Shown: positions 12,630-61,366, counted from the first letter of the stretch. The stretch: DNA of 64,000 bases from an uncultured Verrucomicrobiae bacterium (GCA_937775205.1 CALKBX010000005.1:269087-333086); one strand, 5' to 3'. Made by a program: numbers and translations. Notes: generated from the letters alone by a model not told the origin.

Positions 12630-13826
12630 ATGGGAAAAATCATCCATTCCATCCTGCTATGCGCCATGGCCGTGACCCTTTCGGCCGCCAACCCCGTGCC
12701 TGTGCCCAAGCTGCCCGACGTGCCGCCGGTGCCGCGGGCGGACTTGGAGAAGCAGATTGAGAAAGGCGTTTATTTCCTGCTGGATCGGCAGAACAAAGAC
12801 GGTTCGTGGGGCAGCCCGCGCAACACCAAGGGGCTCAATATTTATGCGCCCGGTTTTCAAAGCCATTATGCCTTTCGGCTGGCGGTGACTTCGCTTTGCG
12901 TCTCAGCCCTCATCGAGACGGGCGGCGACACTCCCCAAACGCGCGCGGCGCTGAAGGACGCCGAGGCCTATTTGCTGGAGCACCTGCCCAAGCTGCGCCG
13001 CGCCGATGCCACGGCGATGTACAATGTGTGGTCGCATGGTTATGGATTGCAGGCATTGGTGCGGCTACGCGCGCGGGCGAAGGCTGAACCGGCGAAGATC
13101 AAAAAAATCGACGCGCTCATCGCGCAACAGTTTAAAATGCTGGGCCGGTACGAATCCGTGGACGGCGGCTGGGGCTATTACGACATGCGTTTGGGCACCA
13201 TGAAACCCGCGAGCAGTTCGATCTCGTTTGTGAATGCCACCGTGCTGGTCGCGTTTCACGAAGCCAAGATGGCCGGCCTTGAGCCGCCCAAAAAACTAGT
13301 GACCCGCGCGCTGGCCGCGCTCAAGCGGCAGCACTTGCCCGACGGCAGTTTTCTTTATGGCGAGTATTTGAAATACTCGCCGCGCCGCGGCATCAACCGC
13401 CCCGGCGGCAGCCTCGGCCGTTCGCAGGCGGGCAACATCGCGCTGCGTTTGTGGGGCGATAAACGCATCACCGACAAAGTTTTGGTCGACTGGCTCGACC
13501 GCCTTTACGCCCGCAACGATTGGCTCGGCATTGGCCGCAAACGCCCGCGGCCGCACGAGGCGTGGTTTCAGGTGGCCGGTTATTTTTATTATTACGGCCA
13601 CTACTACGGCGCGCTGTGCCTCGATCACGTGCCCGCCGCCGAGCGCCCGCGCCTGCAGGATCACATGGCCACCATCATCATGAAGTACCAGGAAAAAGAC
13701 GGCAGTTGGTGGGACTTCCCCTTCTACGATTACCACCAACAATACGGCACCGCGATGGCGCTGATGACATTGCAACGCTGCCTCAAAACCAAATCACCTA
13801 AGGCACCGGCGGTCCCTGAAAAGTAA
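12630..13826 (+). CDS. Secreted prenyltransferase/squalene-oxidase-repeat (terpene-cyclase-like alpha/alpha toroid) protein
   Basis: Signal peptide plus recurring DGSWG, DGGWGYY, DGSFLYG and DGSWWDF repeat motifs. Confidence 0.65.
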   Translation: MGKIIHSILLCAMAVTLSAANPVPVPKLPDVPPVPRADLEKQIEKGVYFLLDRQNKDGSWGSPRNTKGLNIYAPGFQSHYAFRLAVTSLCVSALIETGGDTPQTRAALKDAEAYLLEHLPKLRRADATAMYNVWSHGYGLQALVRLRARAKAEPAKIKKIDALIAQQFKMLGRYESVDGGWGYYDMRLGTMKPASSSISFVNATVLVAFHEAKMAGLEPPKKLVTRALAALKRQHLPDGSFLYGEYLKYSPRRGINRPGGSLGRSQAGNIALRLWGDKRITDKVLVDWLDRLYARNDWLGIGRKRPRPHEAWFQVAGYFYYYGHYYGALCLDHVPAAERPRLQDHMATIIMKYQEKDGSWWDFPFYDYHQQYGTAMALMTLQRCLKTKSPKAPAVPEK

Positions 13827-16755
13827 GCACGAAAGGCCCCGCCAACTGCACGGCGGCCTTGGTGCCTTCGGTGCTCCGCAACTTCACCAGCCAATCGCGC
13901 TGGGTGTTACACAACGAGCGCGGCGCGCGGCGCGTGCGCAGGGCGCGTTGATAAAAATCCTCCATGATTTTAGCCGTCACCGCGTCCGAGATGGGCCAGA
14001 GTGTGAACAGCAGATTTTGCGTGCCCGCCTGCACGAATGCCCGGCGCAGCCCCATCACGCCTTCGCCGGAGTGCACGCGGCCCATTCCGGTTTCGCACGC
14101 GGAAAGCACCGTGAGCCAGTTATCCTCCAAATGCAGCAGGCTGATCTCGGCGGCGGTGACGATGCCGTCGGTGGTGGTGGCGGGAATGCGGCCGGCTTTC
14201 CATTCGGTCAGCGTGCGGTCGGCTCCGGCCAAGGCGAGTCCGCTATTGAGGAGAGATTTTGGAAGGATGCCGCCGGCGCGCGTGCGTCCGCCGGTTTTAG
14301 AAATTTCCTTTGAAGGATTTTTGTTTTTCGGCTTGGTCGCGTTCACGAAAAATCCGTGGGTGGCGAGGTGCAAAATGTGTGGCTGACGCACCGCGTGCAA
14401 TTGGGCTTCGGTGGCAGCTGCGCCGGTGAAGATGCTGGGCTTGAGCTTCCAGCCTTGGGCGGATTGGCGGAGGAATTCCGATTCGCGCAGGGTGCCGGGC
14501 AGCGGGGGCAGAGAGAGCGATTGGAGGTCGCCCGCGCGGGTTTTTCCGCCACCGGCGGGTTGGCCGGGCTTGAATTGTGGATTGGCAAAAGCGATCAACG
14601 CGTCGCTGGCGGGTTTGCGGACGGGCCGCAGTAGGTCACGCCCCGTGGCGATGTGCAGCACTTGATAATTCTCGCAGAGAAATTTTCCGTCCGGCGTCAT
14701 CACGGTGGCGAAGTTAATAAAATTCAACTGGCCGGCGGCGGCGAAGATGAGGGTGTCGGTGGTGGGCGGCAGTTCGTCCAGCACCGGCTGGAGCAAGCGC
14801 CGGTGAAGTTGCCGTAATACTTTTTCATAATCCGCATTGGAGCTGGGCGCGGTGGGATTATAATTTTCAACCAGTTTATTAATGGCCGCCGCGCGCCGAA
14901 TCGGCACCCAGCGTGGCGCGCGCCCGGCGGTGAACACCAGCGCGCTGTATTGGTTGTGCCATTGTTCGCCAAATGCATTTCGGCCCTGATAAGTTTGGTG
15001 CTGCACAAATTCCACCAAAGTGGTTCCGGGCGGGAGGGCCTTTAGCAAATCCGCTACGCGATATTCGGTCCGCGCCTGCCGGGTGTGGCGGGCTAGGGCC
15101 TTTTGCAATCCGTTGAGGATTTGTTTTTGTTTGAACACTTGCAACCCTAGCGGATTCAGCGTTTTGGCATCCTTGGCGAGTGCCTTCTGAAGTTGCAGTC
15201 CAATGAGTTGGGCAGTGGCGGCCTCGATTTGCTCAATGTTTTTCTTCAGCTCCGGCCGCGCCGACAACCGAGCCTGTCGCTGAGCGGCGGCGAGGGAATC
15301 AAGCACGCGCCCTTTTTGGTGCAGCACCAGTTCTGCGATATCCGCGCCGGTACCAAGGCTGATCAGCGGGTGTAGCGGGTCGGTTCTCTCCAGAAAATCA
15401 AAACGCTCTTTTTCTGAGGAGAACGAAAACACTTCCTCGGTGAGCTGCCGTTCGATGGCCCATTTACTACGGGCCCATTCCCGGGCTTGGGCGGGGTTGC
15501 CGAGGTCGTGCTCCAGCAGCGCCAGCTCGCGCATCACCCGCGTGGCCTCGAGGGTGTGGCCGGTGTGAAGGCGGGCGTGGAGGGCGAGTGTTTGTTTGTA
15601 AATATCGCGGGCTTTTTTCAGATTATCCTGCAACACGTGATTGGCGGCGAGGTTGTCGAGTGTGGCGGTGTGGGTGGTGTCGGGCGGGTCGTTGCGTTGT
15701 TTGATGAGTTTCAGGGCAGCAAGCAGATGGGTTTCCGCTTGATTGGGTTCATCGAGTTCCTGATAAAGCTGGGCGAGGTTGTTGTGATCCACGATGACGT
15801 AGGGGTGGTCCGCGCCGAGTTGTTTGCGGTCGATCTCGAGGCATCGCAAATAGAGCCGTTTGGCTTCGTCCATCTTTCCAGTGGCTTGGTGGATGCGGGC
15901 GAGGTTGGCCATGTCGATGGCGGTGAGGTGATGGTCGGCCCCAATGCGGAGGGTGCTGATTTCTAAATTCAACTTGAACTGAGTTTCGGCTTTTTTGAAA
16001 TTGCCGAGCGTTTCGTAGAGCACCGCAAGGTTGGCGCGGGGGATGGTGGTGCGTGGATGGTGCTGGCCGTAGTATTCACGATAGCCATCCAGCGCCTTGA
16101 GATAGGCTTCCTCGGCGAGCTTGTATTGGCCGATGTCCATATAATAAAAGCCGAGGTTGTTGGCGATTTCGCTTTCCACTTCGGCGGCGTGTTCGGGATG
16201 TTTTTTGAGTAATGCGCTGGCCTCATCGAGCCACACTTTGGCGCGCGGATAATGCCCGGCCTCCAGCTCCACCATCGCGGCGTCGGTGATGAGCAGAATG
16301 CGGCTCAACATATCCGCCTCGGGATGCTTGGCGAGTTTAGTGGCTTTCTCGAAAAATTTCATCGAAGCCGCGTACCGGCCGGACTCGTATTCAATGAGCC
16401 CGCGTTCCCATTCGATCTCCATCTGCAAATTGCGATCCGGCTTGGCGGCGAGCAATCCTTCGGCCTGTTTCAGCGCGGCTTGGGCCTTGGGGTAGCCCTG
16501 CAATTCCCGATGCACCACGGCGATTTGGATGAGTGACTTGGCTTGTTCTACGAGGGCGCCATCATTTTTTTGAAAGAGCGCCAGTGCTTTTTGATACGAG
16601 GCGAGTGCTTTTTTGAGTTCGTAATCCTCAAGGTGTTGATCGCCCTGATCGTGCAGCTTTTGGGCTTCTTCCAAAGGCGTAGCGGCGGAAGTAGGCATGG
16701 CAAAACACAACAGCCCGAGGCAAAGGCACAAGAGGATTGTCCGGCTGCGTCCCAT
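13798..16755 (-). CDS. Exported TPR-repeat + CHAT-domain (caspase-like) protease
   Basis: The track ORF (13798-16983) was trimmed to the internal ATG at 16755, giving MGRSRTILLCLCLGLLCFAMPTSAA (signal peptide). The N-terminal ~450 aa are TPR-like. The C-terminus carries a His/Cys dyad typical of CHAT (HLATHGFF ... LSACETG). Confidence 0.8.
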   Translation of the reverse strand: MGRSRTILLCLCLGLLCFAMPTSAATPLEEAQKLHDQGDQHLEDYELKKALASYQKALALFQKNDGALVEQAKSLIQIAVVHRELQGYPKAQAALKQAEGLLAAKPDRNLQMEIEWERGLIEYESGRYAASMKFFEKATKLAKHPEADMLSRILLITDAAMVELEAGHYPRAKVWLDEASALLKKHPEHAAEVESEIANNLGFYYMDIGQYKLAEEAYLKALDGYREYYGQHHPRTTIPRANLAVLYETLGNFKKAETQFKLNLEISTLRIGADHHLTAIDMANLARIHQATGKMDEAKRLYLRCLEIDRKQLGADHPYVIVDHNNLAQLYQELDEPNQAETHLLAALKLIKQRNDPPDTTHTATLDNLAANHVLQDNLKKARDIYKQTLALHARLHTGHTLEATRVMRELALLEHDLGNPAQAREWARSKWAIERQLTEEVFSFSSEKERFDFLERTDPLHPLISLGTGADIAELVLHQKGRVLDSLAAAQRQARLSARPELKKNIEQIEAATAQLIGLQLQKALAKDAKTLNPLGLQVFKQKQILNGLQKALARHTRQARTEYRVADLLKALPPGTTLVEFVQHQTYQGRNAFGEQWHNQYSALVFTAGRAPRWVPIRRAAAINKLVENYNPTAPSSNADYEKVLRQLHRRLLQPVLDELPPTTDTLIFAAAGQLNFINFATVMTPDGKFLCENYQVLHIATGRDLLRPVRKPASDALIAFANPQFKPGQPAGGGKTRAGDLQSLSLPPLPGTLRESEFLRQSAQGWKLKPSIFTGAAATEAQLHAVRQPHILHLATHGFFVNATKPKNKNPSKEISKTGGRTRAGGILPKSLLNSGLALAGADRTLTEWKAGRIPATTTDGIVTAAEISLLHLEDNWLTVLSACETGMGRVHSGEGVMGLRRAFVQAGTQNLLFTLWPISDAVTAKIMEDFYQRALRTRRAPRSLCNTQRDWLVKLRSTEGTKAAVQLAGPFVLTFQGPPVP

Positions 16756-16841
16756 ACCCAAATATGCGATTTCCAGTGGCGGGCTGTCAATGGCGCAAAA
16801 TGGATGTATCCAAATCGCGCGGCGCGGCGTCCAATGGGACG

Positions 16842-17811
16842 ATGCATGCAATTGTGATTTTACTGATTTTGAGCGCGGGCCTGTTGTCGGCGCAGACGCG
16901 GCAAAATGGCGCGGGTGGATTCCGCCAGCGGATGGATGCCAACGGCGACGGCAAATTTTCGCGCGAGGAATTTCCCGGGCCAAAAAATTTCTTCGACCAG
17001 TTTGACAAAGACAAAAACGGATTCCTCACCCAACCCGAAATGGAAGCCATGCGCCGCGCACGAATGCAACAGGGCGGCGCGTCCGGGGCAGGGCGGGGGT
17101 GCGGCGCAGGAATTATTTCGCGGGCTGGATTCAAATGCGGATCAGAAAATTTCCGCTAAGGAATGGGCGACCCTGCTTCAGGCGGCGGATTTCAAAAAAG
17201 CCGACACCCAAGCCGACGGCCTCGTGACGCCGGAAGAATGGATGCGCTATTTCGGGCAAGATCAGCGGCCCGCTGGCGTTGGTGCTGGCGGTGCGCAGGT
17301 GGGAGCGCTTGTGCCCAAGGTATCCGCGCAGTTCATGAAGGGCGATCGCGTGTTGGATTTTTCTAAAATCAAGCGCCACACCGTCGTGGTGTTTGGCTCG
17401 TACACGTGAGGCCCCTTCTCACGCGAGGCCGGGCGCCTCCAGAAATCGTACGAAACCTACGGAAAGCAGGCTGATTTTTATTGGGTCTACATCCGCGAAG
17501 CGCACCCCACCGATTCCAGCCGGCCCGCGCGCCATGTGAAGATTGAACAGCCCAAGACGTTTCTGGCCCGCAAAGAAGTGGCCGCGGCGTGTTCGGCAGG
17601 ACTGAAACTTTCCATCCCAATGTTGGTAGATGACATCGACAACACCATCATGAACGCCTTCAGTGCCTTTCCCGACCGCCTGTACATCATCGGCCCCGAT
17701 GGGCGCATTGCCTTTCAAGGCGGTCGCGGTCCGCGCGGTTTTAGTGTGGATGAAATGGAAACCACATTAAAAAAACTGCTGGCCGTAAAATCAGCTCCCG
17801 CCAAGGATTGA
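16842..17811 (+). CDS. EF-hand / iodothyronine-deiodinase-like thioredoxin-fold selenoprotein (TGA=Sec at 17407; needs one frame correction near 17075-17105)
   Basis: - Frame 0 from the ATG at 16842 reads MHAIVILLILSAGLLSAQ (signal), then EF-hand loops DANGDGKFSREE and DKDKNGFLTQPE.
- Frame +1 from about 17100 has two more EF-hand loops (DSNADQKISAKE, DTQADGLVTPEE), then VVVFGSYT-TGA-GPF.
- The same frame stays open after the TGA, through ADFYWVYIREAHPTD ... FPDRLYIIGPDGRIAFQGGRGPRGF, to the stop at 17809-17811.
- The ORF track splits this into 16737-17159, 16906-17409 and 17536-17811. The last two are in the same frame. Confidence 0.65.
17407..17409 (+). other. Candidate selenocysteine (UGA) recoding codon
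   Basis: The TGA sits exactly where deiodinases have Sec (FGS-x-T-U-P/G-x-F). The reading frame stays open and family-like for 134 more codons. Confidence 0.65.
17425..17439 (+). promoter_or_regulatory. Candidate bacterial SECIS apical hairpin
   Basis: GAGGC-CGGGC-GCCTC forms a 5-bp GC-rich stem with a G-rich 5-nt loop, starting 16 nt after the TGA. It was found by eye only and no folding energy was computed. Confidence 0.3.
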
Positions 17812-17841: not shown

Positions 17842-18297
17842 ATGTTCAAGCTGCTGATTCTTTTGCCCGCGATTGCGTTGATGATGGGTTGCGCAATCTC
17901 CATTCAATCCATCAAAAATCCTGTTGCCGATTCAATCGCCGAACCCACTGCCACGGAGGTGCGCAATGCGTGGTTCGAGGCATTGGATCGCGCGAATCCG
18001 GATTTGCACGATTCGCTTTTGGTGGCGCTGCATTTGAGCAGGCAAACCGGGGGTGAAGTGTTTGTGCGCCGCCTCGAAATCGAAGGCGCAAAGTCGCTGC
18101 CTCAACGCTATCGCGTATCCGCCGAGCGCGGCGGCGGGGATAATGTGGTGGGCGTGAATTACGCCACGCGCGAATTTCTTTTCGACCACTACCTCCCCGC
18201 CGATGGTCCCTCGATGCAGGATATCCGAACCCACCTCCAAAACGCCGCCAGCATCCGCCGCATCAAGCGCGACCTCGAAATTTTTGGAGACCAATAA
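17842..18297 (+). CDS. Hypothetical lipoprotein
   Basis: MFKLLILLPAIALMMGCAIS carries a lipobox. No family was recognised. Confidence 0.6.
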   Translation: MFKLLILLPAIALMMGCAISIQSIKNPVADSIAEPTATEVRNAWFEALDRANPDLHDSLLVALHLSRQTGGEVFVRRLEIEGAKSLPQRYRVSAERGGGDNVVGVNYATREFLFDHYLPADGPSMQDIRTHLQNAASIRRIKRDLEIFGDQ

Positions 18298-18300: not shown

Positions 18301-18385
18301 TGGTACGCGAGAGAGGACTCGAACCTCCACCCCTTGCGAGACCGGAACCTAAATCCGGCGCGTCTACCAATTCCGCCACTCGCGC
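18301..18385 (-). tRNA. tRNA-Leu (anticodon UAG), CCA encoded
   Basis: The reverse complement reads GCGCGAG-TG-GCG-GAATTGGTAGA-CGC-G-CCGGA-TTTAGGT-TCCGG-TCTCGCAAGGGGT-GGAGG-TTCGAGT-CCTCT-CTCGCGT-A-CCA. That gives a 7-bp acceptor stem (G1:U72), a Leu-type D arm, a long variable arm and the T-loop TTCGAGT. Confidence 0.9.
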
Positions 18386-23541: not shown

Positions 23542-24623
23542 ATGTTCGGTAAATTTTATAGCGGTAAAACCGCGTGGGTCACCGGCCACACCGGCTTCAA
23601 GGGCGCGTGGCTCAGCCTGTGGCTGCGCGACCTCGGCGCGACACGTCCACGGCCTTGCCCTCGCGCCGCACGCCCCGCCCAATCTCCACGAAACCCTCGC
23701 GCCCAAAACGTTCGCCAGCGAAACCATCGGGGACATCAGCGATTTTGATTTGGTCAAACAAACCGCTGCCAAAGCAAAGCCCGACATCGTTTTCCATCTC
23801 GCCGCCCAACCGCTCGTGCGGCGCTCGTACGACGCGCCATTGGAAACCGCCACCACCAACATCCTCGGCACCGCTCACGTGCTCGAGGCGTTGCGGCAAA
23901 ACAAAAACGACTGCCCCGTCGTCGTTATCACCAGCGACAAATGTTATGAAAATGATGGCAGCCTCCCGCGCCTTCACCGAGGCCGACCCGCTCGGCGGGC
24001 ACGACATTTATTCCGCCAGCAAAGCCGCCACCGAAATTATGACCCGCAGTTGGCAGCGCGCCTTCGGTGGCCGCATCGCCACCGCCCGCGCCGGCAACGT
24101 CATCGGCGGCGGCGATTACGGCGTCGACCGCATCGTGCCCGATTGCGTCCGCTCGCTCGAAGCCGGTGAGCCTATCGCCGTCCGAAGCCCCGCCGCCACG
24201 CGTCCGTGGCAGCACGTGTTCGATTGTCTTTCCGGCTACCTTTGGCTCGGCGCGCGCTTGGCCGAGGACGATGCCTTCGCCGACGCCTTCAACTTCGGCC
24301 CCACTCCCGAGGCCCAACGTCCCGTGCGCGAGCTCGTGGAAAATTTCCTCCAACACTGGCCCGGCGAATGGACCGACGCCTCCGATCCAGCCGCCCCGCA
24401 CGAAGCCGCCACGCTTTCCCTCGCCATTGATAAAGCCCGCGAGCAACTCGGCTGGCAACCCGTTTGGGATTTCGCCAACGCCGTCCAGCGCACCGCGCGC
24501 TGGTATCATCAACGCCACGTCGTAAACGCCGAAGACCTCCACGGCCTCAGCCTCGCCCAACTCGAGGCGTACACCGCCGATGCCACCGCCAAAACCAGTG
24601 CATTCGCTGCGTGGGCCAAATAA
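23542..24623 (+). pseudogene. rfbG: CDP-glucose 4,6-dehydratase, interrupted by two +1 frame disruptions
   Basis: - Segment 1, frame of 23542: MFGKFYSGKTAWVTGHTGFKGAWLSLWLRDLGA.
- Segment 2, +1 frame from about 23642: VHGLALAPHAPPNLHE...IVFHLAAQPLVRRSY...VVVITSDKCYENDGSL.
- Segment 3, a further +1 from about 23967: RAFTEADPLGGHDIYSASKAATE...RTARWYHQRH.
- Removing one base at each junction restores spacing equal to what I recall for enterobacterial RfbG. Confidence 0.8.
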
Positions 24624-24624
24624 A

Positions 24625-25843
24625 ATGCTCGAGAATTTCCAATGCCGCTCGTGCGCCGCGTGCTCCGGCGAATTGATTCTCGATCTCGGCGAACAACCGC
24701 TCGCCAACAATCCTGCCTCGCGCCCACGAAGACCTCGCCCAACCCGAGCCGCGCTTTCCGCTGCGCCTCGCCGTGTGTACCGAATGTTGGTTGCTGCAAA
24801 TCACCGACCTCGTGCCGCCGGTCGAATTGTTCAGCAATTACATTTATTTTTCGTCGTACTCCGACGCGTGGACGCAACACGCCGCCGAATGCGCCGCGCG
24901 CTATCGCGATGAGTTCGCGCCAAACTACGTCATCGAAATCGCCAGCAACGATGGGTATCTCCTGCGCCACTTTGCCGAAGCCAACACGCCGCACCTCGGC
25001 ATCGAGCCCGCCGAAAACATCGCCACCGCCGCGCGCGAAAAAGGCATCAAAACTCGCACGGATTTTTTTACTGAAAAACTCGCGCAAGAATTAGCTGCCG
25101 AAAAACCGGCCGACCTCATCCTCGCCAACAACGTCTTCGCCCACGCGCCGGACATCAACGACTTCGTCGCCGGCCTCAAAACACTGCTAGCTCCCGAAGG
25201 CCGCGCCATCCTCGAATTCCCTCACGCGGTCGAAATGATTGCCCAAGACGAATTCGACACCATCTATCACGAGCACGTTTTCTATTTCACCCTCACCGCT
25301 CTCGAACCTGTTTTTGCGCGCCACGCCCTGCGCGTCACGCGCGCCGAACGCACGCCGATGCACGGCGGTTCGCTGCGGATTTTTGTGCGACACGAATCGC
25401 ACGCCGCCGATGAAACCGTCGCGGCGTTGCGCGCGGAAGAAAACCAATCGGGCGTCGGCAGTCTCAGCTATTATCAAAACTTTTCCGCCAACGCCTCCGC
25501 CATCCGCGACCAATTACGCGACCAAATCGCCGCCCTCAAAGCCGAAGGCAAAACCCTCGCCGCCTACGGTGCGGCGGCCAAGGGCAGCACGTTGCTGAAT
25601 TTTTGTGGCATCACGGCTGATGATCTTGCCTTCGTGGCCGACTGCAGTCCACACAAGCAGGGCAAGCTAATGCCCGGCGCGCACGTGCCGATTGTGCCAC
25701 CGGAAGAGCTGGCCGATCGCGCGCCGGACGTCACTTTATTGTTGGCGTGGAATTTCGCTGATGAAATCCTTGCGCAGCAGCAAGCGTACCGCAACGCGGG
25801 CGGGAAATTCCTGATCCCCATCCCCGAGGTGCGGCTGGTTTGA
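24625..25843 (+). pseudogene. Sugar C-methyltransferase (zinc-ribbon N-domain + class I SAM MTase + C-methyltransferase C-domain), one +1 frame disruption
   Basis: The frame of 24625 reads MLENFQCRSCAACSGELILDLGEQPLAN. The +1 frame from about 24710 reads ILPRAHEDLAQPEPRFPLRLAVCTECWLLQITDLVPPVELFSNYIYFSSYS... and continues to 25843 (track ORF 24773-25843). Confidence 0.75.
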
Positions 25844-38161: not shown

Positions 38162-38962
38162 ATGGCTGAAACTGAATCGCCCGAACCGTTGCACCCCGAT
38201 CTCATGCCCTCGTTGCGCAAACTGGTGCGCGGGTTGGAGGTGCTCTTTTGGGCGCTGCCCTTCGCGCTGCTCGTGTGTGTGCAGGAAACGATGGTGTCGT
38301 GGTGGGAATCGTGGGGCATCGCCCCCGCGCTGGCGGCGATGGTGCTGCTGTGGTACGGCACGTACAGCCTCAGCCATTTTCAAAAACAAGAACGCGTGTG
38401 GCAGGGCACGGTGAATTTCGCGCAAGTGCTCGCGCTGCTGATGGTGGGGCTCGTGCCCTTCCTCCATTGGCAGCAGCAAATCACGTCCGACACAATGACG
38501 TGGAGCCAAATGAGCGAAGCACAAAAACACGTCGTCTATTCTGCGTGCATCTTTTTCACCGCCGGAATGATGTACGTGCTAAATCTCAACCATGTGCTCG
38601 CACGGCTCGCTGCGATGTTGCCCGATCCCATTCTGCGCGCAGATGTGCGGCTGTTTGTGTATTTGAATTTCGGCCTGTTTCTGTTGTTGGTCATTGGCCT
38701 GTGGATGCATCAAAAAGCGGACGTAGTATTCCTCGGCTTGCGCGAGTTTGCACCGGCGTTTGCTGAAAGCATCGGCAGCTACCTTGGACTCGCCGCGATG
38801 ATGAAAGCCGCCATCCTGTGGGCGGCCACGCTCGTCGTCACCTTGACGATGACGATGCTGTGGAAAACGAAAGAGGCCATTCTCAAAAGCGTATTCAGCC
38901 TTGAACCGCCACCCTTACCGGAAGCGGCGGCCGCGGATGAAGTAGATCCCTCGCTGAATTAA
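38162..38962 (+). CDS. Hypothetical integral membrane protein
   Basis: About 6 hydrophobic segments, starting 3 nt after the speA stop. No family was recognised. Confidence 0.6.
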   Translation: MAETESPEPLHPDLMPSLRKLVRGLEVLFWALPFALLVCVQETMVSWWESWGIAPALAAMVLLWYGTYSLSHFQKQERVWQGTVNFAQVLALLMVGLVPFLHWQQQITSDTMTWSQMSEAQKHVVYSACIFFTAGMMYVLNLNHVLARLAAMLPDPILRADVRLFVYLNFGLFLLLVIGLWMHQKADVVFLGLREFAPAFAESIGSYLGLAAMMKAAILWAATLVVTLTMTMLWKTKEAILKSVFSLEPPPLPEAAAADEVDPSLN

Positions 38963-40062
38963 GCGGCTTTGGCATCGACGAGCCCGTACCAATTATCCCG
39001 CTGGCGCGGTTCGTAGCCGAGGTCTTTTATCAATCGCTGCATATCGGCCACGTCCATGCAGTAAACCGTGCCGGCTTTGGACACCACGTTTTCTTCGATC
39101 ATAATGCTGCCCAGATCGTTCGCCCCGTGTCGCAGTGCCACTTGGCCAATCTCGCGCCCTTGCGTGACCCACGAGCTTTGGATGTTGTCGATGTTATCCA
39201 AATAAATCCGCGAGAGCGCCTGCATCCGGAGGTACTCATGCGCGCCGACGGTGGGCGCTTTGAGTCGCGTGTTCTCCGCTTGAAACGTCCACGCGATGAA
39301 TGCGGTGAAGCCTTTGGTATCATCCTGCTGCACGCGCACGCGCTCCAAATGTTCGATGCGTTCCTCCACCGTTTCCACGTGGCCGAACATCATCGTGGCG
39401 GTAGTGGCGAGACTTTGGCGGTGGGCGATGGCCATTACTTCCAGCCATTCGTCGCTCATCGCTTTGAGTGGAGAAATTTTTTGGCGCACGCGGTCCACCA
39501 GAATTTCCCCGCCGCCGCCGGGGATGGAGCCCAATCCCGCCGCGCGGAAATCGCGGATGATGTCTTCCAGCGGCTCATCAAAAACCTCGCGGAAATGAAT
39601 GAACTCGCTCGGCGAAAATCCGTGCACGTTGATGGACGGGAATTTTTCACGAATGTGCGAAAGTAAATCGAGATACCATTGCTTATTCAATTTGGGATGG
39701 TGTCCGCCTTGCATTAAAATTTGCGTGCCATCCAGCGCGAGGGTTTCCTCGATTTTTTGGTCGATCTCATCGTGCGTGATCACGTAAGCATCCGCCGCTT
39801 TCTCGCTGCGCCAAAACGCGCAAAACTTGCAGTACACATTGCAGACGTTGGTGTAATTGATATTGCGGTCGATGCTGAAGGTGATGATGTCATTGCCGCG
39901 TCCTTCAAAGGCATCTTCTTTAGCCAGTTCACGCCTGCGATGAGCCAGAGCTCCTAAGGTTTCCAAGGGAAGCGTATAAAGACGCAAGGCTTCGTCAGAA
40001 GAAATGCGTTTTCCTGACCATGTTTTGTGCAGGAGTTTGTCTATGGAAGGATCATGGATCAT
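38959..40062 (-). CDS. mqnC: Radical-SAM cyclic dehypoxanthinyl-futalosine synthase
   Basis: NINYTNVCNVYCKFCAFW (CxxxCxxC), ILMQGGHHP. The start was set at the ATG at 40062 (MIHDPSIDKLL...) rather than the TTG at 40101. The mqnC versus mqnE assignment rests on my recollection of the QGGHHP/CAF pattern. Confidence 0.75.
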   Translation of the reverse strand: MIHDPSIDKLLHKTWSGKRISSDEALRLYTLPLETLGALAHRRRELAKEDAFEGRGNDIITFSIDRNINYTNVCNVYCKFCAFWRSEKAADAYVITHDEIDQKIEETLALDGTQILMQGGHHPKLNKQWYLDLLSHIREKFPSINVHGFSPSEFIHFREVFDEPLEDIIRDFRAAGLGSIPGGGGEILVDRVRQKISPLKAMSDEWLEVMAIAHRQSLATTATMMFGHVETVEERIEHLERVRVQQDDTKGFTAFIAWTFQAENTRLKAPTVGAHEYLRMQALSRIYLDNIDNIQSSWVTQGREIGQVALRHGANDLGSIMIEENVVSKAGTVYCMDVADMQRLIKDLGYEPRQRDNWYGLVDAKAA

Positions 40063-40129
40063 CCGGGGAGCAAATGTACGCACTTCACTCCCGAACCGCA
40101 AGGAAGGGGGGGCACTCCTTTATAAAAGA

Positions 40130-41320
40130 TTATTTTTCGGAAGCAGAATTTTGTTTTCCGATTTTGAGATCATAGGTGGTTTCTCCAATTTTCACAACCA
40201 CGGTGCTGGCGGTCACATCAACGCTGATCACTTTCACGCCATCCTGATCTTCTCCAACTGCCAGTTCGTAGTATTGGGCTTTCTTTCCTCTCGGTGGCGA
40301 TATTCTCAGGATGGCTTTTGTGCGGCCATTAATCCGAAGCAGTCCCGCAAGTTGCGGGGCATCGACAGGGACGAATTCTTCAATTTCAGGAGGCTTTTCA
40401 ACTTTGGGCGGCGGTATTAGGCGAAAAGCATCTGATTTCGCAAATGTTTGGGAGGCATTGTCGAGATATTGATGTATTGCTTTGTTTTGCTCTTCATTAT
40501 TGTTCATACCAAATAGTAGCTGGCCGATGGCCTCGAAGCCATTTACTCCCGCATTTGGTTTGAGGATATGAATGCTCAAGGAAAGCTGAACTTGGAGCCG
40601 CTGGCGGTCAGCGGTGGTCGATATCTTCATATCACGCACACGAACGCTCGCCATTTCCTGGTTGATGCCTCGGATGAAATCCGCCAGATCCTTAGGATCA
40701 CACACGAAAGAAACGTTACGCCTGTGTTCATGGAAAATCTGGGCCTTTTTTGGGCGGGCACCGCGAGCAACACTATTGCGTGTAAGAGTAATGCCAGCAC
40801 GTTGGGCGTTTCTTCGAATTCCTTCCAGTAGCTTTTGGGCTTGACTGGCATCCCCAGCGAAGGGGAGGGAGCCACTGGGTATTGATTTACCTCCAGCTTC
40901 ATTAGTCTGTATACTGGCAAATATCTGGTTGTAGGCTTTCTTTTCCTTTTGCAGTTTGGCGGCAACACTCTTTAAACGCTTCTTTCCATCGAGAAATATT
41001 TTCAGGGGGCTTCGTTCCTCCATTTCCCACTTGTAATTAACAGGCTCCGGGGCTTCAGGCAGGATTAGGTTGCTTGCGTTAACAGCATCCGGCCGAATCA
41101 TGCAAACAATTGTCCACCGCCCACGCCCTTCAGTGCCGGCTGCCTCTTCGTGCTGCGATGAGAGCATGACATCGTGAAACAACTTCCGTTGTTTTTTGGA
41201 AACCGGATCAGGCACCATAATTCTTGCGAGGTTATTGCGATAGTCATCCACCCGTTTGCCCTGCCCGGATTTCACCTCACCGTTGAGCGTGATATTGTTT
41301 CCCTCACCCCTCACCTTCAC
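40130..41320 (-). CDS. Hypothetical protein with PilN-end / PilO-like / PilP-like segments (low-GC insert)
   Basis: GTG start, 396 aa. VKVRGEGNNITLNGEVKSGQ...YRNNLARI resembles the PilN core. SFVCDPKDLADFIRGINQEMASVRVRDMKISTT...LQVQLSLSIHIL resembles a PilO/GspM ferredoxin-like end. LLRINGRTKAILRI...YYELAVGEDQDGVKVISVDVTASTVVVKIGETTYDLKI resembles a PilP/GspC beta domain. It is in the same frame as 41348-41632. Confidence 0.5.
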   Translation of the reverse strand: MKVRGEGNNITLNGEVKSGQGKRVDDYRNNLARIMVPDPVSKKQRKLFHDVMLSSQHEEAAGTEGRGRWTIVCMIRPDAVNASNLILPEAPEPVNYKWEMEERSPLKIFLDGKKRLKSVAAKLQKEKKAYNQIFASIQTNEAGGKSIPSGSLPFAGDASQAQKLLEGIRRNAQRAGITLTRNSVARGARPKKAQIFHEHRRNVSFVCDPKDLADFIRGINQEMASVRVRDMKISTTADRQRLQVQLSLSIHILKPNAGVNGFEAIGQLLFGMNNNEEQNKAIHQYLDNASQTFAKSDAFRLIPPPKVEKPPEIEEFVPVDAPQLAGLLRINGRTKAILRISPPRGKKAQYYELAVGEDQDGVKVISVDVTASTVVVKIGETTYDLKIGKQNSASEK

Positions 41321-41347
41321 CGAATTGATAAAGCCCAGTGACAGTTC

Positions 41348-41632
41348 TTACGGAATGTTGCCCGCAGCTGCTTCCAAGGTGTTCATTGCCAACAGGCGAG
41401 ACCTCTTGGCATTCACAACCTGCATTAATATACTCTGCCGATCTTCGTATTCTTTGCTTAGCTTATGATTTTCCCTTGATAATTGGTAGGCACGTTCCTC
41501 CTCGGCCGCAATAGGTTTCAATATGAATTGATTGAAGGCGAGATAGCTGGTTAATCCAAAAATAATCAATATGCCGGGGATAATTAAAAAAAGCCTAGGC
41601 CCTTTCAATCCAGTGTTTGTCTTGTGGCTCAC
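41348..41632 (-). CDS. Single-pass membrane + coiled-coil protein (PilN/PilO N-terminal-like), ends at an in-frame TAA
   Basis: MSHKTNTGLKGPRLFLIIPGILIIFGLTSYLAF (TM) is followed by a coiled coil. Its stop TAA (41348-41350) is followed by 9 sense codons and then ORF 40130-41320, all in the same frame. Confidence 0.5.
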   Translation of the reverse strand: MSHKTNTGLKGPRLFLIIPGILIIFGLTSYLAFNQFILKPIAAEEERAYQLSRENHKLSKEYEDRQSILMQVVNAKRSRLLAMNTLEAAAGNIP

Positions 41633-41710
41633 ACCACTTAAACTACCATTCCCGATTTCTGAGTCAAATTATATCCCATTACAATTTAGGCGGAAAATTA
41701 TAGTGTATTA

Positions 41711-41842
41711 TTATACGATAACTGGCTTGAACACGGGTTGGTTGCCATGAGTCCCTAGTAGCTCAATGAATTTATTGAGGCCGGCCTTTTCACGTCCGCC
41801 AAAGTTGTAGCGGATATGGTCTCTGTATTTCTGTGGTGAAAA
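41711..41842 (-). pseudogene. Orphan duplicate of the last ~43 codons of an mqnA homologue
   Basis: Translation is FSPQKYRDHIRYNFGGREKAGLNKFIELLGTHGNQPVFKPVIV*. The intact MqnA C-terminus is NFRQTYLGGHIQYELGDAEKAGLAKFSELLETHGETEVFTPLFV*. The last 29 residues are 17/29 identical by my count. The fragment begins 1 nt after the intact mqnA stop and is visibly more AT-rich. Confidence 0.7.
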
Positions 41843-41843
41843 A

Positions 41844-42593
41844 TCAAACAAACAAAGGCGTGAAGACCTCTGTTTCTCCGTGCGTTTCCAGCAGCTCCGA
41901 AAATTTTGCCAAACCTGCTTTCTCGGCGTCGCCGAGTTCGTATTGGATGTGGCCGCCGAGGTAGGTTTGGCGGAAATTGGCGTCGTAGTCGGGGTAGGTT
42001 TCGATGGTTTGGGCGAGGTGAGCGAGTCCGTTGGTTTTGGCGGTACGGAGTTTTTCGCGCAGGGGCTTGTCGTGATGACCACGGCGGAGTGCCCAGACGG
42101 CGTAGACGAAAGGGAGGTTGGTGAGTTCGTGCCACGCGGCGCCGAGATCCCAGATTTTGTGCTCGTGCGGGGCTCGTAGGAAATCGATGGCGGGATTGCC
42201 GATAAGTAAAACATTTTCCAACGAAACGGATTGGCGATAGCCACCGAGAGGTTCCAGCTTTGGGCTGCGGCCGCGCTCGGCGAAGAGCACGCGCAGGAGG
42301 TTCACGCTGGTGAGGCTGGCGGTGTCGCAGTGGATGGTTTCGATTTCATCCAGCGGCTGGCGGTGTGCGAGGAAGACGCTCTTCACCGCGCCGCGCGAGG
42401 CGACGGCCACGCCATCGAGCATATCGTAGCCGTCGTGAAAAAGCGCCTCGGTGATGCTCACAAGAGCGGCATCGTGTTGGCCGGCCCGCAGTTTTTCTGC
42501 CAAACGCGAGGGCACATCGTATTCCGTTTCGTGCTCGATGCCATGAGTGAGCGGCACGGAATTGAGATAAGGAACGGAGCCGATGCGTTTCAT
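41844..42593 (-). CDS. mqnA: Chorismate dehydratase (futalosine pathway)
   Basis: MKRIGSVPYLNSVPLTHGI..., 249 aa, periplasmic-binding-protein-like fold family. It overlaps mqnE by 4 nt. Confidence 0.85.
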   Translation of the reverse strand: MKRIGSVPYLNSVPLTHGIEHETEYDVPSRLAEKLRAGQHDAALVSITEALFHDGYDMLDGVAVASRGAVKSVFLAHRQPLDEIETIHCDTASLTSVNLLRVLFAERGRSPKLEPLGGYRQSVSLENVLLIGNPAIDFLRAPHEHKIWDLGAAWHELTNLPFVYAVWALRRGHHDKPLREKLRTAKTNGLAHLAQTIETYPDYDANFRQTYLGGHIQYELGDAEKAGLAKFSELLETHGETEVFTPLFV

Positions 42594-43765
42594 GCGGTGG
42601 CCAAATTATCGTCCAGTAAATTGGGCGGCACGGAATCATCCGGCGAATGGGGGGCGTCAGGTGTGTCATCGGTCCATTCGCGGACGGGTTCGTAAAAGGT
42701 GTTGCGTTGCACGGGCGTTTTGCCGGCTTCGCGAATGGCTTTGATGAGGGCGGCCTCGGGTTGGCATTGGGGCGCGCCGGTACCGGCCATTCGGAAAATG
42801 TTTTCTTCCACGATGGTGCCGTGCAAATCATCGGCGCCGTAGCTGAGTGCCACTTGGGCGAGTTTCATCCCGAGGCCCACCCAATACGCGGTGAGATGGT
42901 CAAAGTTATCAAGAAATAAACGGCTAACGGCGATGGTGCGGAGTGCGTCGTTGCCGGTGGGCGGATGCGTGACGGGTATGGCGTTATTCTCGGGTTGATA
43001 AGGCAGCGGAATGAAACCGGTGAAGCCGCCGGTCTCGTCCTGCAAAGCGCGCAGTTGGGCGAGGTGATCAATGCGTTGCTCGATGGTTTCTACGTGGCCA
43101 AAGAGCATCGTGCACGTGCTGCGCCCGCCGAGTTGATGCCACGTGCGATGGGCATCGAGATATTCGCTGGCGGTTTCTTTGCCCTTGGCGATAGCGTCAC
43201 GCACGTCTTGCTGGAAAATTTCCGCACCGCCGCCAGTGAGCGAATCCAGTCCGGCGGCCTTCAACGTGGCGAGCACTTCGGGCATTGGCTTTTTGCTGAT
43301 GCGGGCGAGGTGGTAAATCTCCACGGCGGTGAAGCATTTGAGCTGGAGATTTGCATTGAGCGCCTTCAGCGCGCGCAGCATTTCGGTATAATAATCAAAC
43401 GGCAGCGAGGGATGCAGTCCGCCGACGATGTGGAGCTCGGTTATATTGAGCGCCAGCGCTTCCTTGGCCTTCGCCACTATTTCGTCGATAGAAAGTTCGA
43501 AGCCATCGCCATTGCGTTTCTTGCGCGCGAAGCTGCAGAATTGGCATGAGAGGATGCAGTAGTTGGAATAATTGATGTAGCGGTTGACGATGTAACTGGC
43601 GCGGTTGCCGACCTTGCGTTCGGTGGCCAGCGAGGCGAGTCGGCCGAGGGCATTGAGGTCTGGCGTGCGAAATAGGCGCAGGGCATCGTCGGCCTCAAGG
43701 CGCGTGTTGGATTCGACTTTTTCGGCAAGGTCGGCCAGTTCGCTTTTTTGCAAAATGAAATCCAT
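42590..43765 (-). CDS. mqnE: Radical-SAM aminodeoxyfutalosine synthase
   Basis: The start was trimmed to the ATG at 43765 (MDFILQKSELADLAEKV...). NYSNYCILSCQFCSF, TELHIVGGLHP, LDSLTGGGAEIF, CTMLFGHVE and LQDETGGFTGFIPLPYQ match what I recall of SCO4494-type MqnE. Confidence 0.75.
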   Translation of the reverse strand: MDFILQKSELADLAEKVESNTRLEADDALRLFRTPDLNALGRLASLATERKVGNRASYIVNRYINYSNYCILSCQFCSFARKKRNGDGFELSIDEIVAKAKEALALNITELHIVGGLHPSLPFDYYTEMLRALKALNANLQLKCFTAVEIYHLARISKKPMPEVLATLKAAGLDSLTGGGAEIFQQDVRDAIAKGKETASEYLDAHRTWHQLGGRSTCTMLFGHVETIEQRIDHLAQLRALQDETGGFTGFIPLPYQPENNAIPVTHPPTGNDALRTIAVSRLFLDNFDHLTAYWVGLGMKLAQVALSYGADDLHGTIVEENIFRMAGTGAPQCQPEAALIKAIREAGKTPVQRNTFYEPVREWTDDTPDAPHSPDDSVPPNLLDDNLATA

Positions 43766-44919: not shown

Positions 44920-45488
44920 TAGTCCTCCTCTTTCCGCCAGCGGGGGGAGATTTCATTTTCTACGCCGAGGTGGTCGAGGACGCGTGCGACTACGGTGTCA
45001 GCCAAATCCTCCAGCGTTTTTGCTTCGGAATAAAAATATGGGTTGGTGGGCATCATCGTGGCGCCGGCTAATAGAAGCAGCTCCATGTTTTTGACGTGGA
45101 CGAGACTGAGTGGCGTTTCGCGAGGGCAAAGGATCAGTATTTTGTTTTCCTTGAGCATCACGTCAGCGGCGCGCAGGAGGGCATCATCGCTGATGCCGTG
45201 GGCAATGCGGCCGAGGGTTCCCATCGTGCAGGGGAGGATCACCATCGAGTCGAATGCATTGGAGCCGCTTGCGAAGGGGACGTTCATGCTTTTGGAGGCG
45301 TGTAGCTGCACGCCCTCGGCGAGGCGCAATCCGTTGGGCAGTTCTTCCTTCAGCACGATTTGCGCGTAGCTACTGGTGATGACGTGAATTTCATGCTCGG
45401 TGGGGTCCAACCGATCGAGCAGGCGTTGGGTATAAATAGCGCCACTGGCGCCTGTGATGGCAACGAGAATTCTCACGGGCACGAGCAT
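44919..45488 (-). CDS. ubiX: Flavin prenyltransferase UbiX
   Basis: The start was trimmed to the ATG at 45488. MLVPVRILVAITGASGAIY..., ILPCTMGTLGRIAHG and CPRETPLS are present. Confidence 0.85.
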   Translation of the reverse strand: MLVPVRILVAITGASGAIYTQRLLDRLDPTEHEIHVITSSYAQIVLKEELPNGLRLAEGVQLHASKSMNVPFASGSNAFDSMVILPCTMGTLGRIAHGISDDALLRAADVMLKENKILILCPRETPLSLVHVKNMELLLLAGATMMPTNPYFYSEAKTLEDLADTVVARVLDHLGVENEISPRWRKEED

Positions 45489-45610
45489 TGCTTTTTCGGG
45501 GTAAATGGTGCAAGCGATTTGTTCACCATTGTGAATAACCTCGACATGGAGGCGGGTTAGGGGCAGGGTGCGCGTCGCATTTTTCGTGCCCTGTCGGCGC
45601 GACAAAGGAG

Positions 45611-57461: not shown

Positions 57462-57465
57462 CAGA

Positions 57466-61343: not shown

Positions 61344-61366
61344 CCGGCCGCGCCACCCAACCGGGA

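What the first reader, a model, noticed from the sequence alone, without database searches (positions are those of the whole stretch)
16842..17811. Unannotated selenoprotein: deiodinase-like thioredoxin-fold domain with in-frame UGA, apparently fused to a secreted four-EF-hand module
**Seen in the sequence**
- Track ORFs 16906-17409 and 17536-17811 are in the same frame, and the 126 nt between them contain no stop.
- The only interruption is the TGA at 17407-17409.
- Reading through gives VVVFGSYT-U-GPFSREAGRLQKSYETYGKQADFYWVYIREAHPTDS...NAFSAFPDRLYIIGPDGRIAFQGGRGPRGFSVDEMETTLKKLL.

**Established knowledge**
- Iodothyronine deiodinases (Pfam T4_deiodinase) have the active site FGS(C/A)T-U-P(P/S)F.
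- It is followed by ADFLxIYIxEAHxSDGW and later PERLYxI..G.I.YxG..GP..Y....V...L.KL.
- All four blocks are recognisable here, with the TGA exactly at the Sec position.

**Inference**
- Upstream, the same gene appears to carry a signal peptide and four canonical EF-hand loops. That would make a calcium-binding periplasmic redox selenoprotein, an architecture I do not recognise.
- A short GC hairpin with a G-rich loop (17425-17439) lies at about the right distance for a bacterial SECIS.
- Standard gene callers would report two or three unrelated small ORFs here.
Basis: partly seen in the sequence, partly recalled or inferred. Interest (0 to 1): 0.85.

Follow-up and report, generated by a model that had tools for sequence, protein, structure and literature searches.

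The report
Frameshifted EF-hand deiodinase-like selenoprotein gene
This is a real bacterial selenoprotein gene, a deiodinase-like redox domain with an in-frame UGA and its recoding hairpin joined to a secreted four-EF-hand calcium module, but this kind of protein is already published and the copy in this window is broken by a 2-base loss.

Summary
The core observation holds. TGA 17407-17409 lies in frame inside a T4_deiodinase domain (Pfam E=1e-25, spanning the TGA). It aligns with Sec170 of mouse Dio3 (4TR3, E=3e-20). The same codon is TGA in 61 of 80 related genome loci from at least six bacterial phyla and Cys in the rest. The 133 codons after it are under purifying selection.

Two corrections:
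- **Frames.** The signal peptide and EF-hands 1-2 (frame of 16842) are not in the same frame as EF-hands 3-4 and the deiodinase domain (frame of 17407). The window lacks 2 nt at 17077-17080 that four intact near-identical contigs carry. A same-strain contig instead has an in-frame 21-nt deletion there. The site is an indel and assembly hotspot, and the window has frameshifts in other conserved genes, so an assembly error or a very recent lesion is likely.
- **Novelty.** Bacterial deiodinase-like selenoproteins were described in 2005. The EF-hand fusion was published in 2021 (PMC9402790, Fig. 2B), and NCBIfam NF038285 covers the architecture.

No selA, selB, selD or tRNA-Sec lies in the 64 kb; the rest of the genome could not be searched. 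Verdict: a real but ordinary member of a known kind.

The parts
16842..16898 (+). N-terminal signal-peptide-like segment MHAIVILLILSAGLLSAQT (frame of 16842). An upstream in-frame ATG at 16800 (MDVSKSRGAASNGT...) is the start chosen by public gene calls.
   Evidence: Translation. P0001 starts MDVSK. The hydrophobic core followed by SAQ is read by eye; no signal-peptide predictor was available.
16935..16970 (+). EF-hand loop 1, DANGDGKFSREE (frame of 16842)
17004..17039 (+). EF-hand loop 2, DKDKNGFLTQPE (frame of 16842)
17070..17096 (+). Indel hotspot flanked by the 8-nt direct repeat CAGGGCGG (17070-17077 and 17089-17096). The window lacks T and A of GGTCGACG at 17077-17080, a 2-nt loss that shifts the frame.
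   Evidence: L001, L002, L089 and L090 are intact. L087 has an in-frame 21-nt deletion. L086 has a scaffold gap ending at 17089. The L088 contig starts at 17089.
17128..17163 (+). EF-hand loop 3, DSNADQKISAKE (frame of 17407)
17203..17238 (+). EF-hand loop 4, DTQADGLVTPEE (frame of 17407)
17299..17808 (+). Deiodinase-like thioredoxin/peroxiredoxin-fold domain, read through the TGA
   Evidence: Pfam PF00837 E=1e-25. Dio3 4TR3 E=3.4e-20 and Dio2 9H48 E=2.6e-14. The model of homologue P0003 best matches 4TR3 and 9H48.
17407..17409 (+). In-frame TGA, the selenocysteine codon, in FGSYT-U-GPF. It aligns with Sec170 of Dio3.
   Evidence: TGA in 61 and Cys in 23 of the gene copies found in the 80 related genome loci.
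17424..17440 (+). Bacterial SECIS hairpin. In this window the stem is 17425-17429 / 17435-17439 (GAGGC/GCCUC) and the apical loop is 17430-17434 (CGGGC). The pair 17424/17440 forms in relatives but is C-C here.
   Evidence: RNAalifold and pair counts: 95% paired, 4 of 6 pairs with compensatory changes, slid controls 29-49%, loop G (alignment column 25) invariant.
17488..17508 (+). YIREAHP motif, equivalent to Dio3 Y197, E200 and H202. It is invariant in 82 bacterial family members.
17590..17592 (+). Family-specific conserved Cys codon in AAACSAG, at the Dio3 L232 position. Candidate resolving thiol.
   Evidence: Cys in 80 of 82 unique family sequences. The resolving role is inferred.
17809..17811 (+). 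True stop codon (TGA) of the gene
   Evidence: TGA is the commonest stop of 42 long ORFs in the window.

Best explanation
The locus is a copy of the known bacterial EF-hand plus deiodinase-like selenoprotein, from a marine Verrucomicrobiota lineage.

**How it works**
- Shown by comparative evidence: UGA at 17407-17409 is decoded as selenocysteine. A short SECIS hairpin lies 18-32 nt downstream (apical loop at +23 to +27, with an invariant G). By analogy with all bacterial selenoproteins, it would recruit SelB with Sec-tRNA(Sec).
- Inferred: the product is exported by an N-terminal signal peptide and binds Ca2+ through four EF-hand loops.
- Inferred: the domain uses a Dio/Prx-type active site, FGSYT-U-GPF plus the invariant Y..REAHP, in which the selenolate attacks an electrophilic atom such as a peroxide oxygen or a halogen.
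- Inferred: the resulting Se-X is resolved by the family-conserved Cys (codon 17590-17592) to a selenenyl-sulfide. Extracytoplasmic thiol reductants then reduce it. The substrate is unknown.

**State of this copy**
- As sequenced, the gene is interrupted by a 2-nt loss at 17077-17080. This separates the signal peptide and EF-hands 1-2 from EF-hands 3-4 and the catalytic domain.
- I judge this more likely an assembly or consensus error at a polymorphic repeat-flanked indel site (about 0.6) than a real inactivating mutation (about 0.35).
For: - **Domain identity.** Pfam T4_deiodinase spans the TGA. The TGA aligns with Sec170 of Dio3.
- **Conservation of the codon.** In 80 genome loci the gene copies carry TGA (61) or Cys (23) at this column. 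The loci come from Verrucomicrobiota, Planctomycetota, Terriglobia, Armatimonadota, delta/Myxococcota, Dehalococcoidia and Binatus.
- **Downstream frame is coding.** Against L003, 35 of 51 differences are at third codon positions, and 30 changed codons are synonymous against 14 non-synonymous.
- **SECIS.**
  - In the window's register, 95% of cells are paired and 4 of 6 pairs show compensatory changes.
  - A second register in other clades is 94% paired, with 5 of 7 pairs compensatory.
  - Sec forms fold more stably than Cys forms: median -10.9 against -5.3 kcal/mol, p=5e-7.
- **Genetic code.** TGA is the main ordinary stop codon in the window.
- **Single ORF in relatives.** About 60 public proteins run from the signal peptide through four EF-hands to ...FGSYT. 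P0003 and P0004 read the TGA as W and continue.
- **Frameshift is specific to this assembly.** The same-strain contig L087 is in frame. The frame-1 ORF product occurs on a single contig among 15 billion proteins. Other conserved genes in the window are also frameshifted.
- **Prior description.** PMC1088965, PMC9402790 and NCBIfam NF038285.
Against: - No tRNA-Sec, selA, selB or selD lies in the 64 kb (ORF 58987-60054 is purM). Sec capacity of this genome is therefore not shown.
- No Rfam SECIS family matches.
- The single-sequence fold of 17407-17470 is no better than shuffles (z=-0.24). The hairpin here is among the weaker ones in the family, -8.1 kcal/mol.
- The sequences of the SECIS alignments were grouped by which register pairs best, which inflates the percentage paired.
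- As sequenced, the catalytic half has no signal peptide.
- Over the 3.75 kb shared with L001, the frameshift is the only indel. A generally error-prone assembly is therefore not proven.
- Ca2+ binding, export, the resolving Cys and the chemistry are all untested.
Confidence: 0.85

Rival explanations
1. The gene is a genuine, recently inactivated pseudogene in this strain. The 2-nt loss is real. Only a truncated secreted two-EF-hand peptide is made, and possibly a cytoplasmic leaderless fragment.
For: - The deletion is in the deposited sequence. The frame-1 ORF was called as a 167-aa protein on one NCBI contig of 483 kb.
- The site is a repeat-flanked indel hotspot where real alleles differ; L087 carries a 21-nt deletion.
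- There is no other indel over the 3.75 kb shared with L001.
Against: - The rest of the gene is undegraded: 0 mismatches to L087 over 1012 nt, with the TGA, SECIS and all motifs intact.
- Every other near-identical contig that spans the site without a gap is in frame.
- Assemblers break or gap exactly here (L086, L088).
- The window has at least 3 more frameshifts in conserved genes, which suggests sequence error.
Confidence: 0.3
2. The TGA is an ordinary stop. The locus holds separate small genes: an EF-hand protein and an unrelated 91-aa ORF.
For: All public gene calls annotate it this way. No Sec machinery is seen in the window.
Against: - One Pfam domain spans the TGA.
- Cys replaces the TGA in homologues.
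- The 126 nt before the called GTG start are conserved as coding sequence.
- The hairpin covaries.
- The region after the TGA is under purifying selection.
Confidence: 0.02
3. The organism reads TGA as a sense codon (Trp or Gly, code 4 or 25), so the residue is not Sec.
For: P0003, P0004 and P0031 in public collections carry W at this position.
Against: - TGA ends 20 of 42 long ORFs in the window, including this gene.
- W appears only at the one column where others have TGA or Cys. That is the signature of a gene caller run with table 4.
- The lineage is Verrucomicrobiota.
Confidence: 0.01

Closest known systems
EF-hand-fused deiodinase-like selenoprotein of marine metagenomes (Xu et al. 2021, PMC9402790, Fig. 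2B)
   Same: The domain combination (EF-hand pair Pfam13499 plus Pfam00837 with Sec), the marine origin, and extra conserved Cys of unknown role.
   Different: The window copy is frameshifted. This work adds the reverse domain order (EF-hands C-terminal in Terriglobia) and the phyletic spread.
Bacterial deiodinase-like selenoproteins (Zhang, Fomenko and Gladyshev 2005, PMC1088965; later reviews PMC9312934 and PMC13188914)
   Same: Pfam00837, Sec and Cys forms, and a bacterial SECIS with a G in a small apical loop right after the UGA.
   Different: The reviews list the motif as UxxC. This clade has U-G/P-P-F with no Cys at +3, like animal Dio (TUPPF).
NCBIfam NF038285 'deiodinase family protein' (deiodinase_rel)
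   Same: The 347-position model covers both an EF-hand region and the Dio domain. The repaired window protein matches both parts.
   Different: It scores 199 bits, below the 250 cut-off. Cys-type homologues P0057, P0058 and P0066 score 340-402 bits. The window protein is a relative outside this equivalog.
Mouse iodothyronine deiodinases Dio3 and Dio2, catalytic cores (PDB 4TR3, 9H48)
   Same: Sequence E=3.4e-20 and 2.6e-14. F165, G166, T169, U170, P172, F173, Y197, E200, H202, R225, D244, R260, Y262, G276 and P277 are conserved. The homologue model matches with TM 0.76.
   Different: - A bacterial in-ORF SECIS instead of a 3'-UTR SECIS.
- A signal peptide and EF-hands instead of an N-terminal membrane anchor.
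- Dio3 His219 is replaced by Pro, and Cys239 is absent.
- A new conserved Cys sits at the L232 position.
- Thyroid hormones are not an expected substrate.
SELENON (selenoprotein N), cited from my own knowledge and not tested here
   Same: A selenoprotein in a secretory or extracytoplasmic compartment that combines an EF-hand with a Sec redox centre.
   Different: Different fold family and motif (SCUG). Eukaryotic ER protein. No homology is claimed.
ResA/TlpA/DsbE extracytoplasmic thiol-disulfide oxidoreductases and peroxiredoxins
   Same: Next-best structural matches (Foldseek E about 1e-7). Exported thioredoxin-fold redox proteins.
   Different: They have a CxxC or Prx motif and lack the Dio-specific insertion and the EAHP motif. 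Pfam AhpC-TSA and Redoxin hits are below threshold.

Membership tests
Bacterial deiodinase-like selenoprotein (Pfam PF00837) | T4_deiodinase domain above Pfam's gathering score | tested here: met
   90.8 bits against a cut-off of 27. The match covers residues 161-313 of the repaired protein and spans the TGA.
Bacterial deiodinase-like selenoprotein (Pfam PF00837) | In-frame UGA at the catalytic Sec column, with Cys in some homologues | tested here: met
   It aligns with Sec170 of Dio3. The gene copies in the 80 loci carry TGA (61) or Cys (23) at this column.
Bacterial deiodinase-like selenoprotein (Pfam PF00837) | Bacterial SECIS: a stem-loop just 3' of the UGA with G in a small apical loop | tested here: met
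   Hairpin 17425-17439 with loop CGGGC. Covariation is shown. No Rfam model matched.
Bacterial deiodinase-like selenoprotein (Pfam PF00837) | Coding conservation downstream of the UGA | tested here: met
   30 synonymous against 14 non-synonymous codon changes relative to L003. Downstream motifs are invariant.
Bacterial deiodinase-like selenoprotein (Pfam PF00837) | Host genome encodes selA, selB, selD and tRNA-Sec | not testable with these tools
   None lies in the 64-kb window.
Bacterial deiodinase-like selenoprotein (Pfam PF00837) | Selenium actually incorporated | not testable with these tools
   Needs 75Se labelling or mass spectrometry.
EF-hand-fused deiodinase-like selenoprotein (PMC9402790) | EF-hand domain and Dio-like domain in one polypeptide | tested here: inconclusive
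   EF-hands 3-4 are in frame with the Dio domain. The signal peptide and EF-hands 1-2 are out of frame because of the 2-nt loss at 17077-17080. The same-strain contig L087 and L001-L004 are single ORFs.
NCBIfam NF038285 deiodinase_rel | Whole-protein score at or above the curated cut-off of 250 bits | tested here: not met
   199.4 bits for the repaired protein. Cys-type relatives score 308-402 bits.
Animal iodothyronine deiodinase (Dio1-3) | Catalytic core with FGS.TU.PF and EAHP | tested here: met
Animal iodothyronine deiodinase (Dio1-3) | His219 and Cys239 of Dio3, N-terminal membrane anchor, 3'-UTR SECIS (feature list from my own knowledge of the Dio3 structure paper) | tested here: not met
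   His219 is Pro in 77 of 82 sequences and no Cys occupies position 239. The N-terminus is a signal peptide plus EF-hands. The SECIS lies inside the ORF.
Animal iodothyronine deiodinase (Dio1-3) | Reductive deiodination activity | not testable with these tools
   Biochemical assay needed.
Peroxiredoxin / Redoxin (PF00578, PF08534) | Pfam gathering score | tested here: not met
   16.1 bits against 26, and 11.8 bits against 26.6.
Lanmodulin (NF053806) | Curated score, and Pro at EF-loop position 2 | tested here: not met
   34 bits against 135. Position 2 of the four loops is A, K, S and T.

The most novel reading that the evidence does not exclude
The EF-hand-coupled bacterial deiodinase-like selenoproteins are Ca2+-dependent extracytoplasmic reductive dehalogenases. 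They would act on iodinated or brominated phenolics released by marine algae, which would make them functional bacterial counterparts and evolutionary forerunners of thyroid-hormone deiodinases. The repeated, independent fusion to EF-hands, N-terminal in Verrucomicrobiota and Planctomycetota and C-terminal in Terriglobia, would reflect calcium gating of that activity.
Probability: 0.1. Interest if true: 0.7.

Novelty: new member of a known kind. Interest (0 to 1): 0.25.

Why it matters
- **Annotation.** The locus shows how a widespread selenoprotein is systematically mis-annotated. Every public gene call seen here splits it at the UGA or translates the UGA as Trp. The genome scan found 588 relatives, and most of the 80 examined carry TGA.
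- **Biology.** The family is the closest bacterial relative of the thyroid-hormone deiodinase catalytic core, and its substrate is still unknown. The recurrent EF-hand coupling hints at calcium-linked extracytoplasmic redox or dehalogenation chemistry.
- **This finding.** The family and the fusion are already in the literature, and the copy here is frameshifted, so it adds an instance rather than a discovery.

Tried and rejected
- **Rfam.** The whole window at gathering thresholds and 17380-17500 at E<=10 gave no SECIS family match. This is uninformative, because the curated bacterial SECIS models did not reach this family.
- **Sec machinery.** ARAGORN plus Pfam or NCBIfam on about 47 window ORFs found none. 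The AIRS-family ORF at 58987-60054 is purM, not selD.
- **Other selenoprotein genes in the window.** A scan for in-frame TGAs with long flanks gave 73 candidates. All but this one look like off-frame noise or ordinary stops.
- **A systematic TCGA-motif error as the cause of the 2-nt loss.** Rejected. TCGA is not depleted: 322 sites against about 236 expected, and 13 of the 15 L001 sites are kept in the shared segment.
- **A conserved gene neighbourhood as a functional clue.** The divergent CHAT/TPR gene and the downstream 151-aa lipoprotein-like gene are conserved only in the close clade. Distant loci have unrelated neighbours.
- **Structure prediction of the repaired window protein.** The 52%-identical full-length homologue P0003 was modelled instead. 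pTM was 0.52, so the packing of the EF module against the Dio domain was not interpreted.
- **Lanmodulin-like lanthanide binding.** Rejected.
- **Exact-product look-up of the frame-1 ORF for its source record.** The product is in the protein collection, but no gene position is on record.

Full report
**1. What is in the sequence**

ORFs 16906-17409 and 17536-17811 share a frame. The 126 nt between them hold no stop, so the only interruption is TGA 17407-17409. Reading through gives ...HTVVVFGSYT-U-GPFSREAGRLQKSYETYGKQADFYWVYIREAHPTDS...PDRLYIIGPDGRIAFQGGRGPRGFSVDEMETTLKKLL.

- Pfam T4_deiodinase (PF00837) matches across the TGA: E=1.1e-25, 90.8 bits against a cut-off of 27. With X at the Sec position it still gives E=6e-24.
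- Against solved structures, the best matches by sequence are the catalytic cores of mouse Dio3 (4TR3, E=3.4e-20) and Dio2 (9H48, E=2.6e-14). The TGA aligns with the Sec-to-Cys position of FGSCTCPPF.
- A 52%-identical full-length homologue, P0003, was modelled with AlphaFold2 (pLDDT 77, above 90 over most of the catalytic domain). Foldseek again ranks 4TR3 and 9H48 first (TM 0.76). ResA/TlpA-type oxidoreductases and peroxiredoxins follow.

**2.

The signal-peptide-like N-terminus (MHAIVILLILSAGLLSAQ) and EF-hand loops 1-2 (16935-16970, 17004-17039) are in the frame of 16842. That frame runs into a nonsense tail and stops at TAA 17157-17159. EF-hand loops 3-4 (17128-17163, 17203-17238) and the deiodinase domain are in the frame of 17407.

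- DNA alignment to near-identical contigs shows why. L001 (99.65% over 3.75 kb), L002 (98%), L089 and L090 (99.8%), and the 85%-identical L003 and L004, all read CAGGGCGGTCGACGTCC. The window reads CAGGGCGG-CG-CGTCC, a 2-nt loss at 17077-17080.
- In those relatives one ORF runs from the signal peptide through four EF-hands to the TGA and beyond.
- The site lies between two copies of CAGGGCGG (17070-17077 and 17089-17096) and is a hotspot.
  - L087 has no mismatch to the window over 1012 nt but carries a 21-nt in-frame deletion there. Its protein reads ...RMQQGGGAAQELF...
  - L086 has a scaffold gap ending exactly at 17089.
  - The L088 contig begins at 17089.
- The window's frame-1 ORF product (MARVDSAS..., 167 aa) exists on a single NCBI contig of 483,422 nt among about 15 billion proteins.
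- The window has frameshifts in other conserved genes.
  - A CDP-glucose 4,6-dehydratase gene is spread over three frames. Joined, it matches TIGR02622 end to end at 425 bits.
  - A C-methyltransferase gene has its N-terminal part in another frame.
- Together these favour an assembly or consensus error at a polymorphic indel. A real, very recent inactivating mutation cannot be excluded.

**3. Evidence that the TGA encodes selenocysteine**

- **Protein search.** The repaired protein found about 60 proteins of 182-220 aa that all end ...VVVFGSYT, truncated at the TGA. Three full-length entries (P0003, P0004, P0031) carry W there, which is what a gene call under translation table 4 would give. 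Cys-type homologues carry FGS[YF]TC.
- **Genome scan.** Scanning one genome per GTDB species with the domain alignment found 588 relatives. In the best 80 loci, 61 gene copies have TGA at this codon and 23 have Cys. They come from Verrucomicrobiota, Planctomycetota, Terriglobia, Chthonomonadaceae/Armatimonadota, delta/Myxococcota, Dehalococcoidia and Binatus.
- **Selection.** After the TGA, window against L003 shows 35 of 51 differences at third codon positions. Thirty changed codons are synonymous and 14 are non-synonymous.
- **Genetic code.** TGA is the commonest normal stop in the window (20 of 42 long ORFs) and ends this gene too. The code is not reassigned.

**4. SECIS**

RNAalifold predicts exactly this structure for the 21 distinct sequences that share its register.

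- 95% of cells are paired, and 4 of 6 pairs show compensatory double changes. Examples are GAGGC/GCCUC, CAGGC/GCCUG and GAUGU/ACAUC.
- Slid controls reach only 29-49% paired. The second loop base (G, alignment column 25) is invariant.
- Other clades have a 7-bp hairpin 4 nt closer to the UGA. It is 94% paired, with 5 of 7 pairs compensatory.
- The same region folds more stably in Sec genes than in Cys genes: median -10.9 against -5.3 kcal/mol, Mann-Whitney p=5e-7.

Caveats:
- Sequences were assigned to a register by which stem pairs best, which inflates the paired fraction. The whole close clade (L001-L015, L018) falls in the window's register without exclusion.
- The window's hairpin is at the weak end of the family, -8.1 kcal/mol.
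- A single-sequence fold of 17407-17470 is no better than shuffles.
- No Rfam SECIS model matches.

**5. Sec machinery**

ARAGORN finds only tRNA-Leu at 18301-18385. Family scans of about 47 ORFs found no selA, selB or selD, and the AIRS protein at 58987-60054 is purM.

**6. How it probably works**

- Shown comparatively: SECIS-dependent recoding of the UGA, and a deiodinase-type active site.
- Across 82 unique family sequences, F165, G166, T169, U170, P172, F173, Y197, E200, A201, H202, P203, R225, D244, R260, Y262, G276 and P277 (Dio3 numbering) are conserved.
- Dio3 His219 is Pro in 77 of 82 sequences, and Cys239 is absent. A family-specific Cys at the L232 position (window codon 17590-17592) is present in 80 of 82.
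- Inferred:
  - export by the signal peptide;
  - Ca2+ binding by four canonical loops;
  - selenolate attack on an electrophilic O or halogen;
  - resolution by the conserved Cys to a selenenyl-sulfide;
  - re-reduction by extracytoplasmic thiols.
- EF-hands occur N-terminally in Verrucomicrobiota and Planctomycetota and C-terminally in Terriglobia, and many members have none. This suggests a recurrent functional coupling rather than an accident.
- Gene neighbourhoods are not conserved beyond the close clade.

**7. Comparison with what is known**

- Bacterial Sec and Cys deiodinase-like proteins with bacterial SECIS elements were reported from the Sargasso Sea in 2005 (PMC1088965). They are listed in later reviews.
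- NCBIfam NF038285 models an EF-hand region plus the Dio domain. Cys-type relatives score 308-402 bits. The repaired window protein matches both parts but scores 199 bits, below the cut-off of 250.
- The reviews give the motif as UxxC. This clade has U-G/P-P-F, as animal deiodinases do.

**8. Verdict**

This is a real selenoprotein gene of a known family and a known architecture. Public records mis-call it as separate ORFs, and in this window a 2-nt loss interrupts it. Interest is low to moderate. The open question of biological value is the substrate of these calcium-module-bearing bacterial deiodinase relatives.

Noticed in passing
window 23545-24623 (+): A CDP-glucose 4,6-dehydratase gene is split over three reading frames by two frameshifts, near 23630 and near 23955. 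The joined pieces match TIGR02622 over positions 1-352 of 352 at 425 bits. Neither site is a homopolymer.
   Followed up: yes
window 24608-25843 (+): A C-methyltransferase (Methyltransf_14/23) has its N-terminal Cys-rich part (MLENFQCRSCAACSGELILDLGEQPLANN) in a different frame from the rest. This is probably another frameshift. The homologue on the P0009 contig has an extra Methyltransf_13 N-terminal domain.
   Followed up: partly
window 17070-17096; L086, L087, L088: The 8-nt direct repeat CAGGGCGG flanks a 21-nt segment that is present in some otherwise identical contigs and absent in others. Metagenome assemblers gap or break exactly here. It looks like a strain-level indel polymorphism in the linker between EF-hands 2 and 3.
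   Followed up: yes
L016-L079 (class B loci) versus the window clade: The family uses two SECIS registers. One has a 5-6-bp stem with a 5-nt loop centred 26 nt from the U of UGA. The other has a 7-bp stem with a 3-nt loop centred at 22 nt. Both are supported by covariation.
   Followed up: yes
L022, L025, L065, L068, L070, L073, L075; P0026, P0027, P0031: In Terriglobia the deiodinase-like Sec domain comes first, and 3-6 EF-hand loops follow at the C-terminus. This is the reverse of the window's domain order.
   Followed up: partly
L060 3112 and 3881; L029 1675 and 3037: A Dehalococcoidia MAG has two tandem Sec copies with identical local sequence. A Planctomyces MAG has a Cys paralogue next to a Sec paralogue.
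   Followed up: no
P0003, P0004, P0031 (public protein collections): The Sec codon is translated as Trp in these entries, presumably because gene calling used translation table 4 on those contigs. Such entries mask selenoproteins as ordinary full-length proteins.
   Followed up: partly
window 61340-63511 (+): One 723-aa ORF combines a low-molecular-weight phosphotyrosine phosphatase domain, RpiB and serine hydroxymethyltransferase. Given the frameshifts elsewhere, it could be a real fusion or lost stop codons. The Rho N-terminal domain follows in the same frame after the TGA at 63509.
   Followed up: no
window 17842-18297 (+) and 18301-18385 (-): A 151-aa ORF with a lipoprotein-like N-terminus (LMMGC) starts 31 nt after the selenoprotein gene. 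It has no Pfam or NCBIfam match and is conserved only in the close clade. A tRNA-Leu gene follows on the opposite strand.
   Followed up: partly
window 13798-16983 (-): A large TPR plus CHAT-domain protein is transcribed divergently from the selenoprotein gene. The arrangement is conserved in L001, L002 and L085 but not in more distant loci.
   Followed up: partly
window 38959-45797 (-) and 54433-61343 (+): A futalosine-type menaquinone gene cluster (two radical-SAM CofH/MqnC-like genes, VitK2_biosynth, UbiA, flavoprotein) and a purine cluster (purQ, purL, purF, purM, purD). These are ordinary housekeeping context.
   Followed up: no
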